A DNA stretch of 20,069 nt from a virus. Lineage: Duplodnaviria; Heunggongvirae; Uroviricota; Caudoviricetes. This document shows positions 11,401-17,400 of the stretch, one piece after another. The stretch's first letter is position 1. Each line of letters begins with the position of its first letter. Position numbers: made by a program. The stretch covers positions 1-20,069 of the IMG/VR virus record IMGVR_UViG_2778261642_000012. One strand, given 5' to 3'.

Positions 11401-14400
11401 TTACCCCCTCATTCAAACGGGCTTTCCAGGCTTTGAAGGCTGCAGATTTTGAATTGCCACCAGCACGTTTGGGGTATGCCAGCCATGCCTGCTCAAACTC
11501 CGGAGAGTATTCCGGTCGGTTTGAACGAACTCGCACAGACTCATCAGCAGATGCACCAACAGCTATTGGTTCATTGACTGGTTCTTTGACTGGTTCAAAA
11601 GAGTGACTGGTTCTGGGTGAATCTCCTGCACCACCCCCTGGTGCAACTCCTGCACTACCTGGTGAATTTGCTGCACCAGATAGTGAATTATTTGCACTAC
11701 CCCCTAGTGAATCTCCTGCACCATCAAGATGAAGGAGATAGATATTACTTGAGTTACCTTTTTCACCTTTCCGGGTGACTTTTTTTACCAGCCCGGAATC
11801 ACAAAGGGCCGCAATATGATTCATCACAGAACGTTTGCTAATCTCGCACTGGTCAGCAATATGCTGGTAGCTGGGCCAGCACTCACCCTGATCGCTGGCA
11901 TTATCAGCCAGCTTGATCAGAACCAGTTTTCGCAATGGATTACCCACTCGAATTTTCATCGCTTTAACCATCAGCTCCATACTCATGCTGCACCTCCGAG
12001 ATGCTTCATGTTTTTTCCGGAGCAAAAGGCTATAAGCGGCATACTGATGCGGTAATTACGGCCCAGCGGTTCACAAATCACCTTCTGACATTCACGGTCA
12101 ACCAGGCTAACACGTAGAACATGCCCTGCAGGTGTGGTGTACCACTGACCCGGACGAGGACAACGGAAAGTCTGATTGGTAAACCGTTTGAAAATATTCC
12201 GGATCATTTGCGCCCCCTTACCTCTGAAGGGTTCAGCGACAAATTTATGAGGCAGGCCAGTGCCGAAGCATCATTAATATAGTCATACAAGCTAACAGCC
12301 AGCGGAGATTCGGCTTTTGCCAACATAGGATAAAGCTGCTGCAGCCAGACCTGATGAATTGATGAAATGTAGGAATAGAGAACGCTGGCGTTATGTGCAA
12401 CGTCGCTCAGTACAGAGGGATTTGAAAGCTGTTTCTCCATCTGGTTAAAGGCATTGATGTATGCCTCTTTGAACTGGGCAGCACGTTTACCAGTGAAACC
12501 CATAGCAAGAAACGCAAAGCCGTCGCGGGTTATTTGGTAGCAAGGAAGTTTGCGACCTGTGCAATCAGTGTAATCACTCACCGAAAAATTGCGGGCAGTG
12601 AATGATGCTGAGCATTCAAGCGTACGGATCTTTTTCAGTACATCGTCATGACGTTTGGAGAAGAAGTTGGCAACAGCCAGGGATGAAGTAACAGCCTGAC
12701 CATCAACGATGGCAATTTCAGGTTGAGTGAGGGTTGGGATCGTAGCCATGATGGCAGCCTCTTTGGTGATTTTTAATAACTCACCACCAAGGCTTTCCAC
12801 GACCTTATTGGTGGTGAGACGTACAGGGGTGGAAATACCGGTCACCAAAGAACCCGGCCCAACCGAAGTTGGCCCTGCACGCCCCACCATAATTTGGGCG
12901 TAATGCTGCTCATGACACAAAAAAACCGCAAGAGCGCGGTTGTGCGCTTTGGTGAATTCCGGGTTTCCACGCCCGGCACCCGTTTTATAAGGTGCCTGAA
13001 CAGTGTAACGTCCCGGAATGGCAGAATCAATGTGCTGGTGGTCCTTCACACTCAACAAAATCACGCCTGAATTTCCACAAAGGACTAAAGCACTCATGCG
13101 GGTAGTCTTTGCGAAGATAGATAACGCGCTGTGTTTCTGGTTCCCAACGAATAACATGGACATAAAGCCCTCTTCCGTCACGAAACCAGCGGTTAAGTTC
13201 CTGCACAACTCGCCCCCCACAGTCAGGTAAAGTTCTCTGTGGTTACTTACAGCCAGGTGATTTGGTAATCTGCATTCATGCCGTAACAACAGGTGTTCAG
13301 CGACACTGACCACCAGCTGTTGCGACAAACGGTTATTTGCCGTTACACTGTTCATGCGTTAGTTTCTCCACAGACACAAAACGCCACGACGCCCGGAGCT
13401 GCACACTCGCGGGCGTCACTCTTTTCTGGAGCGCAGAAGATTTTGTAGACCAGTGCTGCATGTTCCTGGAGCTTCGAAATTGACAGATACAACTCATCAT
13501 TAATTGCTGTCTGCTCGTGTGGCTCCACGACCCCATCTTCGATTGCCGAACGAATCTGCTTTGAGTAATTCCCGATCTGTTCGATGACTTCCAGCAGGCG
13601 CTGGTTTATATCGGCGTTCTCTACTTCCTCAATTTCAGGAAGCGATACGAACACCCCACCAGCAGACTGTGCGACAGCATCCGCAATGTAGTGAGTGCCA
13701 GCCGCGCGCTGTAAAACCATTGCCCATCCCAGCGGGAAAATCTGATCGCCATCTGCACGAAGGCGGTTGAATAAAGCGTTCTCTGTTACATCCAGCCAGT
13801 CAGCAGCTTCAGCGTAACCCCCAGGCAATGCCGCGATAGTTTTTCTGACAGCTTTCACGTACCACTCAGGTTGTTTTTCCACTTTCCAGTGATGCTTACC
13901 CACGGCTTACCTCCTGTTCCTGTGGTTTAAACCCATTCTGGTTTTGGCTAGATTGAAAACGTGCCGGATAAAGAATCTGCATTTCGCTGATTTCACCCTT
14001 AAAAAAATTGGCCAGACGTTCTGCAAGATCGATAGATGGAATTTGTTCCAGTCTTTCAATACGACTCAGCGTCGCTGGATTGACCTGAACGCCCGCAGCA
14101 ACATGCTGCAAAGTAAATCCGTGCGCCTTACGCACATTCCGTAATGGTGATTGCATATAACCTCCACATATTGCGTGATGAGCATATTATTTCACGCAAA
14201 TATTTTGCGCAAGTTGATTTGCTTAACGCGCAATAAAGAAATGTAATAAACGCATGAACATAGGAAATCGAGTCAGACAACTTCGCCAGGCGAAGAACAT
14301 GAAAATCGCCGATCTCGCTGAAGCAATAGGAGTGGATGCGGCGAATATCTCGCGCCTCGAAACAGGTAAGCAGAAACAATTCACTGAACAAGCCCTGAGT

Positions 14401-17400
14401 AATATTGCCAGGAGCTTAGGTGTTGATATTGCTGATCTCTTTACCTCAGACCTCAAAAGTAATACTGTATGTAAAAACAGTATTAGTGAGGATGTTGCGC
14501 AGGTGAAGGATGTATTCCGTATTGAAATGCTGGATGTCAGTGCCAGTGCGGGAAATGGCCTTATCCAGGGCGGTGATGTCATTGATGTGATTCATGCCAT
14601 TGAATACAGAACTGATAATGCTGTATCGATGTTTGGTGGACGACCAGCAAATCACATTAAAGTTATCAACGTTCGTGGGGACAGTATGTGTCCAACCATT
14701 GAGCCAGGAGATCTCATCTTCGTTGATATCAGTATCAATCAGTTTGATGGGGATGGTATATATGTATTTGGTTTTGATGATAAAATTTACGTCAAACGAC
14801 TGCAAATGATACCTGATAAACTGCTGGTAATTTCTGATAATCAGATTTACCGCGAATGGGGAATTACCAGCGAAAACGAACACCGGTTTATGGTCTTTGG
14901 AAAGGTCTTAATCAGTCAGTCACAGACCCTTAAGCGACACAATTAACCCCCTACCTCAACATCAATTAGCCACCAGAAGGTGGCTTTTCATTACCTACCA
15001 AATTGCATATCTCGCAACAAAACACTTGCATAATGCGCAACTTCATTTTATCTTTCTTTCCAGACCTACAAACAAGGTACTAACAAAATTTGGTTGTAAC
15101 ACGGCGTATGGCACATGCGTCGTTAGCGGTCTGGGGACGTTAAAGGGGACAATCCACTCCTTGCTCGGGCAAACAAACCAGGTAGCCGGAATGTGCAAGT
15201 CAATGATGATGCTGATAAGACGCCTAACCAGCGCGGCGATCCGGTTTGACGCCTGGGAAGAGACCAGGGTGCAACGATGAGGGCATTTATGGAACCGCGA
15301 CAAAGTGTGGTGCCGTAACTGGCTAAGTGCTCTCAGCGTTGTGGTAATCCGCGAAATGGCGCGGCGGTAAGTATGGCGGGGTTACTCTTTCCCCGTTGAG
15401 GACACCGGATTGTCAGGCTGACCATACGCCTGAGTGACAATCCCGCCACAACAGCCACTGCTTTGGCGGTACCAGTTTGTACACTTGCTTCCGGCTGGTA
15501 CCGCTCTTTTTACAAAACAGAGAAGAGCATCACCGGACGACGGGCTCATAACCCAATCCATCCGGGCGGCTGTCACCGCAGGTGTTCTTCTCTGTTTTGT
15601 GGAGAAACTAACCGACCTTGCAGGGTCGATATGATGAGGAGCAGCAAAATGGCTAGCGAACGCAGTACTGATGTGCAGGCATTTATCGGGGAGCTGGACG
15701 GCGGCGTATTTGAAACCAAAATCGGCGCAGTTCTCAGTGAAGTCGCTTCCGGTGTGATGAACACGAAAACCAAAGGTAAGGTCTCACTCAACCTGGAAAT
15801 CGAACCGTTTGATGAGAACCGTGTGAAAATAAAACATAAACTCTCATATGTTCGCCCGACTAACCGCGGGAAAATTTCCGAAGAAGACACCACCGAAACG
15901 CCGATGTATGTCAATCGCGGTGGTCGCCTGACTATTCTGCAGGAAGACCAGGGACAATTACTGACTCTTGCCGGTGAACCTGACGGAAAACTCCGCGCAG
16001 CAGGTCATTAATATCGTTTTTAATTAACTGATTATTTATCTCATCACTGAATATTTTATATAGTGAGGACTGATTATGTCTCAGAACTTAGACGCAACCG
16101 CAATTAATCAAATCCATGCCCTTATTTCTGCTCAGGGTGTTAATGAAATTATCAGTAAGATTGGTGCCGATGCTGTGGCATTGCCTGAGAATTTCCGCAT
16201 TCATGATCTGGAAAAATTTAATTTAAATCGTTTCCGTTTCCGTGGTGCGCTTTCCACTGCCAGCATCGATGACTTTACCCGTTATTCTAAAGATCTTGCA
16301 GATGAAGGCACCCGCTGCTTTATCGATGCCGATAATATGCGTGCCGTCAGTGTGCTTAACCTGGGTACTATTGATGAACCAGGTCACGCAGATAACACCG
16401 CCACTCTCAAACTGAAAAAGACAGCACCGTTCTCTGCTCTGTTGTCTGTTAATGGCGAGCGTAACTCCCAGAAGTCACTGGCAGAATGGATTGAAGACTG
16501 GGCCGACTACCTTGTGGGCTTTGATGCTAATGGTGACACCATTCAGGCAACCAAAGCGGCTGCGGCAGTCCGTAAAATCACAATTGAAGCAAACCAGACC
16601 GCTGATTTTGAAGACAATGACTTCAGCGGCAAACGCTCCCTGATGGAGTCTGTCGAAGCGAAAACCAAAGACATTATGCCAGTGGCATTTGAATTTAAAT
16701 GCGTTCCGTTTGAAGGCCTGAAAGAACGTCCGTTTAAATTACGCCTCAGCATTATCACTGGCGATCGTCCTGTACTGGTTCTGCGCATTATTCAGCTGGA
16801 AGCGATGCAGGAAGAAATGGCTAACGAATTTCGTGATCTGCTTGTTGAGAAATTCAAAGACAGCAAAGTAGAAACCTTTATTGGTACTTTCACCGCCTGA
16901 TTTCATTACTGCAAATGCCCCTGCGGGGGCATTTATGGAAACGTAATTAACTCAATAATCACCGGATGGTGAGAGCTTCCTTTTAGCAGAATTCAGCGCG
17001 GTGCAGCGCATATAAAGTGGAGAACGAAATGTCATTTATTAAAACTTTTTCTGGGAAGCATTTTTATTATGACAAGATAAATAAAGACGACATCGTGATT
17101 AACGATATCGCAGTTTCCCTTTCAAATATCTGTCGCTTTGCAGGACATCTTTCACACTTCTACAGCGTCGCCCAGCATGCGGTGCTTTGCAGCCAGCTGG
17201 TACCGCAGGAATTTGCTTTTGAAGCGTTAATGCATGATGCAACAGAAGCATATTGCCAGGACATCCCCGCTCCACTGAAACGCCTTCTTCCTGACTATAA
17301 ACGGATGGAAGAAAAAATAGATGCCGTAATCCGTGAGAAATACGGGTTACCCCCGGTTATGAGCACGCCTGTGAAATATGCCGATCTCATCATGCTGGCA

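What the first reader, a model, noticed from the sequence alone, without database searches (positions are those of the whole stretch)
14157..15040. Shared 15-bp operator architecture TTGC-N7-GCAA on both sides of cI
Perfect copies lie at 14218-14232 (OR side) and 15003-15017 and 15026-15040 (OL side), with a near copy at 14170-14184. This defines the immunity specificity of the prophage from sequence alone and marks pR/pRM and pL.
Basis: seen in the sequence. Interest (0 to 1): 0.35.

Follow-up and report, generated by a model that had tools for sequence, protein, structure and literature searches.

The report
Repressor operators flanking a prophage cI
Four 15-bp palindromic sites (TTGC-N7-GCAA) on either side of a prophage repressor gene are very probably the operators through which the repressor shuts off the phage's early promoters; this is an ordinary lambda-type switch in a very common E. 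coli prophage type whose operators seem never to have been described.

Summary
Exact TTGC-N7-GCAA sites lie at 14219-14233, 15003-15017 and 15026-15040. A one-mismatch copy (TTGC-N7-GCAT) lies at 14171-14185.

Evidence that these are operators:
- Three exact copies in 232 nt of intergenic DNA has P about 1.6e-7.
- In 30 related loci (CI 54-96% identical, Escherichia to Proteus and Serratia) the half-sites are fixed in position while the N7 spacer varies.
- A weight matrix trained only on distant relatives ranks these four sites top in the 20-kb window (16.7-18.4 bits; next 9.1).
- Phage cdtI shares both flanks but carries a different cI/cro module, and there all four sites are gone.

Each site overlaps an inferred promoter: pR (-10/+1), pRM (-35) and pL (-35 plus an upstream partner). 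The TTGC half-site doubles as the -35 element. cI looks leaderless.

It differs from lambda. OR has two strong sites 48 bp apart with no convincing middle operator, and OL has two sites 23 bp apart, as in HK022.

The module occurs in phages mEp460 and SfII, in Stx2a phages, and in 19% of complete E. coli genomes. I found no paper on its operators.

Verdict: a correct, ordinary call; a new member of a known kind. Binding itself is untested.

The parts
13896..14156 (-). cro-like gene (86 aa, HTH_3); first gene of the inferred pR operon
   Evidence: Homologous Cro (MQSPLR..LSRIER..ILYP) lies next to cI in nearly all related loci.
14121..14135 (.). Weak candidate operator inside cro codons (GTGCGCCTTACGCAC). 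It matches the family's '-133' site.
   Evidence: PWM 6.5 bits here, against 10-21 bits at the same position in most relatives. The signal is confounded with the conserved Cro codons (L/V)RK(S/A)(Q/H). Unresolved.
14171..14185 (.). Operator OR-left: TTGCGTGATGAGCAT (TTGC-N7-GCAT). It overlaps the last two bases of the pR -10 and the predicted pR start.
   Evidence: PWM 18.2 bits. TTGCG..GCAT is >=90% conserved at -83 in 26 distinct loci. The constant final T coincides with the T of the minus-strand -10 TAATAT (inference).
14184..14189 (-). Inferred pR -10 (TAATAT on the minus strand)
   Evidence: Conserved as TAAyAT, 17 bp from the minus-strand TTGCGC, in relatives. 4/6 match; not called by the consensus scan. 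Inferred.
14205..14212 (.). Invariant palindrome TTGCGCAA. Its minus-strand TTGCGC (14212->14207) is the inferred pR -35; it is an orphan operator half-site.
   Evidence: >=90% conserved in 26 loci. A full middle operator here (14198-14212) scores below 0 bits in the window and 6.5-13 bits in about half of the relatives.
14219..14233 (.). Operator OR-right: TTGCTTAACGCGCAA. Its left half is the inferred pRM -35.
   Evidence: PWM 16.7 bits. Present at -35 from the cI ATG in nearly every relative, with a varying spacer.
14242..14247 (+). Inferred pRM -10 (TGTAAT). It ends 7 nt before the cI ATG, which implies a leaderless cI mRNA.
   Evidence: TgtAAT is conserved at -12..-7 in the family, and no Shine-Dalgarno sequence precedes the ATG. 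G at position 2 is non-canonical. Inferred.
14241..14255 (.). Marginal operator-like site ATGTAATAAACGCAT, 22 bp from OR-right, over the pRM -10 and the cI start
   Evidence: PWM 9.1 bits, 7.8-9.3 bits in the window's close clade only. It could simply reflect the -10 plus CGCATG. Unresolved.
14254..14946 (+). cI repressor (230 aa): N-terminal HTH, C-terminal S24 autopeptidase; Ala99-Gly100, Ser144, Lys181
   Evidence: 100% identical to the CI of phage PhiR40_1 and 96% to the CI of SfII.
14968..14985 (+). Intrinsic terminator after cI
   Evidence: Annotated as a terminator in SfII. A hairpin plus T-run is kept in relatives although the sequence differs.
15003..15017 (.). Operator OL-a: TTGCATATCTCGCAA, upstream partner of OL-b (23 bp centre to centre)
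   Evidence: PWM 18.1 bits. A paired site 22-24 bp upstream of OL-b is present in most relatives.
15026..15040 (.). Operator OL-b: TTGCATAATGCGCAA. Its left half TTGCAT is the inferred pL -35.
   Evidence: PWM 18.4 bits. Conserved in relatives.
15049..15054 (+). Inferred pL -10 (TATCTT), 17 bp after TTGCAT
   Evidence: A TAtnnT hexamer lies at a fixed distance (8 nt) after OL-b in the relatives read. Not called by the consensus scan. Inferred.
13932..15081 (.). Exchangeable immunity module (cro - OR - cI - terminator - OL/pL). It contains all four operators.
   Evidence: Phage cdtI matches the window up to 13931 (89%) and from 15082 (97.9%), but carries an e14-type cI/cro in between with no TTGC-N7-GCAA sites.

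Best explanation
The four sites are the operators of a lambda-type immunity switch.

Inferred mechanism:
- A dimer of the 230-aa CI repressor places one HTH on each TGC(G/A) half-site of the 15-bp dyad (T/A)TGC(G/A)-N5-(C/T)GCA(A/T). The centre of the dyad is AT-rich.
- OR-left (14171-14185) covers the -10/+1 of pR. CI there blocks leftward transcription of cro, the cII-like gene, the isrK/C4 RNAs, the Rha-type antirepressor gene and the replication genes.
- OL-b (15026-15040) covers the -35 and spacer of pL. OL-a, 23 bp upstream, is its cooperative partner. Together they block rightward early transcription.
- OR-right (14219-14233) covers the -35 of pRM, which makes a leaderless cI mRNA. It would give negative autoregulation by CI and/or shut-off of cI by Cro.
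- RecA-stimulated self-cleavage at Ala99-Gly100 (Ser144/Lys181 dyad) would lift repression.
- In all three promoters the TTGC half-site doubles as the TTG of the -35 hexamer.

Shown here: the sites, their enrichment, their conservation, their linkage to the cI/cro module and the domain content of CI.

Inferred, not shown: who binds which site, the promoter positions, the leaderless start and cooperativity.
For: - Enrichment: 5 exact matches against 0.85 expected; three in 232 intergenic nt, P = 1.6e-7.
- Footprint: TTGC and GCAA/GCAT are invariant while N7 varies, in SfII and Salmonella phage 118970_sal3, in five further phages and in 23 bacterial genomes of about 12 genera.
- A PWM trained without the window's clade ranks exactly these four sites first (16.7-18.4 bits; next 9.1).
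- The same layout recurs across the 30 loci: -83 and -35 before cI, and a pair 22-24 bp apart after the cI terminator.
- CI has an HTH plus Peptidase_S24; Cro has HTH_3. The recognition-helix region ...NISRLETGKQK is conserved in all loci that keep the motif.
- Homologues with another N-terminal domain lack the motif: Turner (44%), HK022 (43%), e14 YmfK (23%).
- Natural module swap in cdtI removes all the sites.
- Conserved -10 hexamers lie at fixed distances from the half-sites.
Against: - There are no binding, footprinting or TSS data. No paper on this immunity type's operators was found.
- The inferred promoters match the sigma-70 consensus weakly (7-8 of 12) and were not called by the scan. 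The scan instead flagged TCCACA/TATTAT on the + strand at 14163-14190, which is not conserved in relatives.
- The related loci were retrieved with a peptide pattern from the HTH (ETGKQK[QS]F). Co-occurrence of helix and motif is therefore partly built into that sample.
- The PWM training sites were chosen by <=1 mismatch to the motif, so the invariance of the core is partly circular. The extra information at positions 5/11 and in the spacer is not.
- The best-matching site (OR-right) sits on pRM rather than pR, so the order of occupancy is unknown.
Confidence: 0.85

Rival explanations
1. The sites are real regulatory sites but are read mainly by Cro (86 aa, HTH_3) or by CI and Cro at different subsets. 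For example, Cro would act at OR-right to shut off cI, and CI at OR-left and OL.
For: Cro is co-inherited with the same operators in nearly all loci. Its recognition helix (…TLSRIER…) resembles that of CI (…NISRLET…). Shared operators are the rule in lambda, 434 and P22 (established knowledge).
Against: This complements the main explanation rather than excluding it. OL sites lie next to cI and far from cro, and in characterised lambdoid phages they are CI sites. Nothing in the sequence assigns sites to one protein.
Confidence: 0.08
2. The repeats are only promoter -35-like elements (TTGnnn) plus chance dyad symmetry, not protein-binding operators.
For: In each inferred promoter TTGC coincides with the TTG of the -35. 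One-mismatch matches are not enriched window-wide.
Against: The right half GCAA/GCAT, 11 bp away, is as conserved as TTGC although it has no promoter role. OL-a and OR-left do not sit on a -35. The dyad disappears with the cI/cro module while promoters remain in cdtI.
Confidence: 0.03
3. The sites bind a host transcription factor rather than a phage protein.
For: The window's central palindrome CGCAAATATTTTGCG recalls, from memory, host purine-repressor-type boxes. This was not tested.
Against: The motif travels with the phage cI/cro module through many host genera and is replaced by other dyads in heteroimmune modules with the same flanks. The central palindrome is not conserved outside the close clade.
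Confidence: 0.02

Closest known systems
Phage lambda OR/OL - CI/Cro genetic switch
   Same: cI (HTH + S24 autocleaving C-terminal domain) is divergent from cro. Dyad operators overlap pR and pRM in the short intergenic region, and overlap pL beyond the cI terminator. cI mRNA is apparently leaderless. The whole unit is exchangeable as an 'imm' region.
   Different: The operators are 15 bp, not 17 bp, and have a different sequence. OR has two strong sites 48 bp apart (4.6 helical turns) and no convincing OR2. No site sits at the position from which lambda CI activates pRM. OL has two sites, not three. There is no N or cIII homologue (stated for SfII in PMC3851460).
Phage HK022 repressor and operators (record X16093)
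   Same: CI C-terminal domain is 43% identical. Annotated operators are 15 bp. OL has only two operators, 24 bp apart, with one over the pL -35.
   Different: The HK022 half-sites are TG(A/T)AC, not TTGC, and its N-terminal domain is unrelated. HK022 OR has three annotated sites. The pL leader here shows no similarity to the HK022 leader.
e14 / cdtI-type immunity module (YmfK/YmfT)
   Same: It occupies exactly the same slot between the YmfL-like cII gene and the early-left leader, with the same gene order. cdtI shares both flanks with the window.
   Different: CI is only 23% identical. The operators are GTAC-based dyads (TTGTACC..GGTACAA) and none match TTGC-N7-GCAA. It is heteroimmune by sequence.
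434 / P22-type HTH repressors
   Same: The N-terminal domain is a Cro/C1-type HTH. The best solved-structure match for that domain is a 434-derived domain (dh434, E = 2e-4).
   Different: The similarity is weak. 434 operators are 14-bp ACAA-N6-TTGT (established knowledge). No solved structure is close enough to model base contacts.

Membership tests
Lambdoid CI/Cro immunity switch | Repressor with an N-terminal HTH and a C-terminal LexA-like S24 autopeptidase domain (Ala-Gly site, Ser/Lys dyad) | tested here: met
   Pfam HTH_3/HTH_26/HTH_31 at residues 3-64 and Peptidase_S24 at 104-218. Ala99-Gly100, Ser144 and Lys181 are read from the sequence.
Lambdoid CI/Cro immunity switch | A divergently transcribed small Cro-type HTH gene across a short intergenic control region | tested here: met
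   An 86-aa HTH_3 protein is encoded at 13896-14156 (-), 97 nt from the cI ATG. It is conserved in relatives.
Lambdoid CI/Cro immunity switch | The same dyad-symmetric operator repeated at OR and at OL | tested here: met
   Two sites at OR and two at OL score 16.7-18.4 bits, the top four in the window. They are conserved in 30 loci.
Lambdoid CI/Cro immunity switch | Operators overlap pR, pRM and pL | tested here: inconclusive
   Positionally conserved -35/-10-like hexamers overlap the sites. They match the consensus at only 7-8 of 12 positions and the promoter scan did not call them. No TSS data.
Lambdoid CI/Cro immunity switch | Operators are inherited and exchanged together with cI/cro as one immunity module | tested here: met
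   cdtI has the same flanks but a different cI/cro, and the sites are gone. SfV and Stx2c phages share only the cII-side flank.
Lambdoid CI/Cro immunity switch | CI and Cro physically bind the operators and repress the promoters | not testable with these tools
   Needs EMSA or footprinting and reporter assays. No published data were found.
Lambda-type tripartite operators (three adjacent sites at about 23-24 bp, with OR2 activating pRM) | Three adjacent operators at OR and at OL | tested here: not met
   In the window, the only strong sites at OR are 14171 and 14219, 48 bp apart. The middle position scores below 0 bits. OL has two sites.
HK022-type repressor/operator set | TG(A/T)AC-N5-GT(A/T)CA operators read by the HK022-type N-terminal domain | tested here: not met
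   The HK022 operator sequences differ, and only the C-terminal domain aligns (residues 19-228, 43%).

The most novel reading that the evidence does not exclude
The right operator may work differently from lambda's. It has two strong operators 48 bp apart, roughly on opposite faces of the helix. A third family-level site lies 50 bp further on, inside cro. There is no functional OR2. CI would then repress pR and pRM through independent single dimers, so cI would be autoregulated only negatively. Any cooperativity would come from the adjacent OL pair or from an OL-OR loop of about 0.8 kb. In every promoter the operator half-site serves as the -35 element. That would be a simpler, differently wired bistable switch in one of the commonest E. 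coli prophage types.
Probability: 0.3. Interest if true: 0.4.

Novelty: new member of a known kind. Interest (0 to 1): 0.25.

Why it matters
This immunity module is present in 1041 of 5426 complete E. coli genomes. It also occurs in named phages: mEp460, SfII, Stx2a_1447/WGPS2, phiSTEC1575-Stx2k and 1720a-02. Its repressor is annotated only as 'XRE family transcriptional regulator'.

A defined operator consensus and promoter map would allow several things:
- prediction of homo- and hetero-immunity among these prophages, including Shiga-toxin phages;
- design of reporter and induction assays;
- better annotation.

Conceptually it adds another worked example of the lambdoid switch, with a somewhat different operator layout. 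It does not add a new principle.

Tried and rejected
1. The perfect palindrome CGCAAATATTTTGCG (14195-14209) sits exactly midway between the two OR sites, so I considered it as an 'OR2'. I rejected it. Its left arm is conserved only in the close clade (SfII, Citrobacter) and is lost in the other relatives. Only TTGCGCAA is invariant.
2. A canonical middle operator at 14198-14212 (family '-56' site) scores below 0 bits in the window and 6.5-13 bits in about half of the relatives. I left it as 'absent or vestigial here'.
3. The exact matches at 8428 and 12550 lie inside ORFs and have low PWM scores (3.2 and 8.6 bits). I treat them as chance.
4. The promoter called by the scan (TCCACA-16-TATTAT, + strand, 14163-14190) has a -35 that is the cro Shine-Dalgarno region and is not conserved.
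5. E. coli K-12 e14 is not the same immunity type. YmfK is 23% identical and the operators are GTAC-type.
6. I searched the literature for ymfK, mEp460, ST64B and SfIV operators and for the motif string. Nothing described these operators.
7. Solved structures: nothing is close enough to infer base contacts.
8. I looked for HK022 put-like similarity in the pL leader and found none. Rfam at E<=1 over 14940-16100 gave nothing relevant.
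Full report
**Observation.** The exact pattern TTGC-N7-GCAA occurs five times in the window, against 0.85 expected from dinucleotide shuffles.
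- Three copies lie in the non-coding DNA next to a cI-like gene: 14219-14233, 15003-15017 and 15026-15040.
- Two copies lie inside ORFs (8428, 12550).
- A one-mismatch copy, TTGCGTGATGAGCAT, lies at 14171-14185.

Allowing one mismatch gives no window-wide enrichment (17 against 14), so the signal is the clustering. Three exact copies in 232 intergenic nucleotides has a Poisson probability of 1.6e-7.

**Context.**
- ORF 14254-14946 (+) encodes a 230-aa protein with a Cro/C1-type HTH (residues 3-64) and a Peptidase_S24 domain. It has Ala99-Gly100, Ser144 and Lys181, so it is a LexA/CI-type self-cleaving repressor.
- An 86-aa HTH_3 protein (cro-like, 13896-14156, -) lies 97 nt away and is divergent from it. 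A CP76/YmfL-type cII-like gene follows (13352-13903, -).
- An intrinsic terminator follows cI (14968-14985).
- The region is 99-100% identical to phages PhiR40_1, PhiR55_1, phiSTEC1575-Stx2k and mEp460. It is 96% identical to Stx2a_1447/WGPS2 and 1720a-02, 90% to Shigella phage SfII and 73% to Salmonella phage 118970_sal3.
- It is present in 1041 of 5426 complete E. coli genomes.

**Comparative test.** I aligned OR and OL with SfII and 118970_sal3. TTGC and GCAA (GCAT at the left OR site) are invariant while the seven spacer bases change.

I then collected five more phages (CI 44-84% identical) and 24 loci from bacterial genomes, of which the 23 that keep the HTH pattern were analysed. They come from Shigella, Citrobacter, Kluyvera, Klebsiella, Pantoea, Mixta, Rosenbergiella, Dryocola, Proteus, Serratia and others, with CI 40-96% identical. 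Findings:
- Nearly all loci that keep the recognition-helix region ...NISRLETGKQK keep a site at -83 and one at -35 from the cI ATG. Most keep a pair 22-24 bp apart after the cI terminator. Spacers are free to vary.
- I built a symmetrised weight matrix from 71 unique sites of distant relatives only, excluding the window and its >=90% clade. It ranks the four window sites first: 18.4, 18.2, 18.1 and 16.7 bits. The next best is 9.1 bits, against a background mean of -39.
- The refined consensus is (T/A)TGC(G/A)-N5-(C/T)GCA(A/T) with an AT-rich centre.

Caveats: the genome loci were fished with an HTH peptide pattern, and the training sites were picked by <=1 mismatch. Part of the core invariance is therefore built in. 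The positional conservation, the spacer variability and the extra information at positions 5 and 11 are not.

**Natural swap.**
- Phage cdtI matches the window up to 13931 (89%) and again from 15082 (97.9%). Between these points it carries an e14-type cI/cro.
- In that module the repeated dyads are GTAC-based, and no position scores above 5.2 bits with the TTGC matrix.
- E. coli K-12 e14 itself has the GTAC type, and YmfK is only 23% identical to this CI.
- HK022, whose CI C-terminal domain is 43% identical but whose N-terminal domain differs, has annotated 15-bp operators TG(A/T)AC-N5-GT(A/T)CA.
- The TTGC-N7-GCAA sites therefore travel with this particular cI/cro pair. All four lie within the exchangeable immunity module, ~13932-15081.

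**Promoters and mechanism (inferred).** I stacked 26 distinct OR sequences. Besides the two operators, this shows an invariant TTGCGCAA (14205-14212), a conserved AT-rich hexamer (14184-14189) and a conserved TgtAAT (14242-14247).
- pR: on the minus strand, TTGCGC - 17 bp - TAATAT gives a start near 14177. OR-left covers its -10/+1. The constant GCAT instead of GCAA at this site coincides with the final T of the -10.
- pRM: on the plus strand, TTGCTT (the left half of OR-right) - 17 bp - TGTAAT gives a start at about the A of the cI ATG. No Shine-Dalgarno sequence precedes it, so cI is probably leaderless as in lambda. OR-right covers the -35.
- pL: after the terminator, TTGCAT (the left half of OL-b) - 17 bp - TATCTT. 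A TAtnnT hexamer lies at the same distance in the relatives. OL-a lies 23 bp upstream.
- These promoters match the consensus at only 7-8 of 12 positions and were not called by the scan. They rest on positional conservation.

The most likely working is this. CI dimers at OR-left and at OL-a/OL-b silence pR and pL. CI and/or Cro at OR-right turns down pRM. RecA-stimulated cleavage of CI induces the prophage.

**How it differs from lambda.**
- The two strong OR sites are 48 bp apart centre to centre (4.6 turns).
- The perfect palindrome midway between them (14195-14209) is not conserved beyond the close clade.
- A canonical middle site (14198-14212) scores below zero here, although it reaches 6.5-13 bits in about half of the relatives.
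- Two marginal sites remain unresolved. One is 14241-14255 (9.1 bits), over the pRM -10 and the ATG. The other is 14121-14135 (6.5 bits), inside cro. It is the counterpart of a '-133' site that scores 10-21 bits in most relatives, but it is confounded with conserved Cro codons.
- OL has two sites, as in HK022.
- No site sits where lambda CI activates pRM.

**Known or new.**
- I found no paper describing operators for this immunity type. I searched for ymfK, mEp460, ST64B, SfIV/SfII and the motif string. The SfIV paper notes only that cI and Cro of SfII differ from those of SfV/SfIV and that SfII, SfIV and SfV lack N/cIII-type factors (PMC3851460).
- No solved structure is close.
- The finding is a correct sequence-based operator call for a very common but uncharacterised lambdoid immunity module. 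It is a new member of a known kind, of modest interest.

**Seen in passing.**
- The DNA just downstream of pL carries a conserved structured RNA candidate of about 245 nt (15099-15345, +). It is not in Rfam. Its folding z-score is -4.8.
- I collected 199 instances (101 unique) from IMG/VR. They show several covarying helices.
- The same element lies next to tRNA genes in P1/P7/SJ46 and in epsilon15-like phages. It also lies right after the pL of phages with other immunities.
- On the pR side, strong Rfam hits to isrK and C4 antisense RNA lie upstream of the Rha-type antirepressor gene.

Noticed in passing
window 15099-15345 (+): Candidate unclassified structured RNA of about 245 nt at the start of the inferred pL transcript.
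- Folding z-score is -4.8 on the + strand against -3.1 on the - strand, over 15061-15640. Rfam gives no hit at E<=1.
- The 19-mer GGTAGCCGGAATGTGCAAG found >=120 IMG/VR stretches. I collected 199 instances, 101 of them unique. Several helices covary, with 2-4 Watson-Crick pair types per pair, for example the hairpin CCUGG/CCAGG ~ CCUCG/CGAGG ~ GCCGG/CCGGC.
- The same element lies between tRNA-Ile/tciC and ban in P1/P7/SJ46, and directly upstream of tRNA-Arg in epsilon15-like (Uetakevirus) phages. It also lies right after the pL of heteroimmune lambdoid phages.
- There is one copy in the window. No paper contains the sequence. It shows no similarity to the HK022 leader. Function is unknown; given its position it could be a leader or processing RNA, or an antitermination RNA.
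   Followed up: partly
window 12807-12995 (-): Rfam hits well above gathering score: C4 antisense RNA (12807-12894, 83.6 bits) and isrK (12919-12995, 67.9 bits). They lie between the cII-like gene and the Rha-type (antirepressor) gene, as in P1 immI or the Gifsy isrK arrangement. The 383-aa ORF 12204-13355 is annotated as 'regulatory protein Rha' in mEp460. It runs across both RNAs and is probably over-extended, because the Rha domain lies in the C-terminal 188 aa.
   Followed up: partly
L170 384-430 (IMG/VR contig 3300011242_000058): In one variant of the structured RNA above, the variable 3' insert gives a hammerhead type I hit (28.7 bits, below the gathering score of 34, E = 0.002). It has a recognisable CUGAAGAG...GAAAC core. 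The window's copy has no such hit.
   Followed up: no
L113 about 1600-1670 (e14, minus strand); also L002, L086, L093, L096, L098 and L001 downstream of pL: A different conserved early-left leader element...ACAGGCAGGACGCCCACGAAGTAGCC-hairpin-GGATGATTCG..., follows pL in e14, 118970_sal3, Flotzy, SfII and several genome loci, regardless of immunity type. It is absent from the window.
   Followed up: no
window 15512-15526 / 15586-15600 (+): A long, near-perfect hairpin (arms ACAAAACAGAGAAGA / TCTTCTCTGTTTTGT and their extensions) lies just upstream of the yfdP-like gene, at the 3' end of the non-coding pL leader. mEp460 annotates two minus-strand hypothetical ORFs across this leader. They look unconvincing.
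   Followed up: no
window 5332-5641 (-): A cluster of four phage-borne tRNA genes: Gly-TCC, Thr-TGT, Lys-TTT and Met-CAT.
   Followed up: no
window 14121-14135: The palindrome GTGCGCCTTACGCAC lies inside cro codons 8-12. In most relatives the same position holds a good TTGCG-N5-CGCAA site (10-21 bits), written with uncommon codons (TTG, TCG). That hints at a fourth operator 50 bp downstream of OR-left. In the window it is degenerate (6.5 bits).
   Followed up: partly
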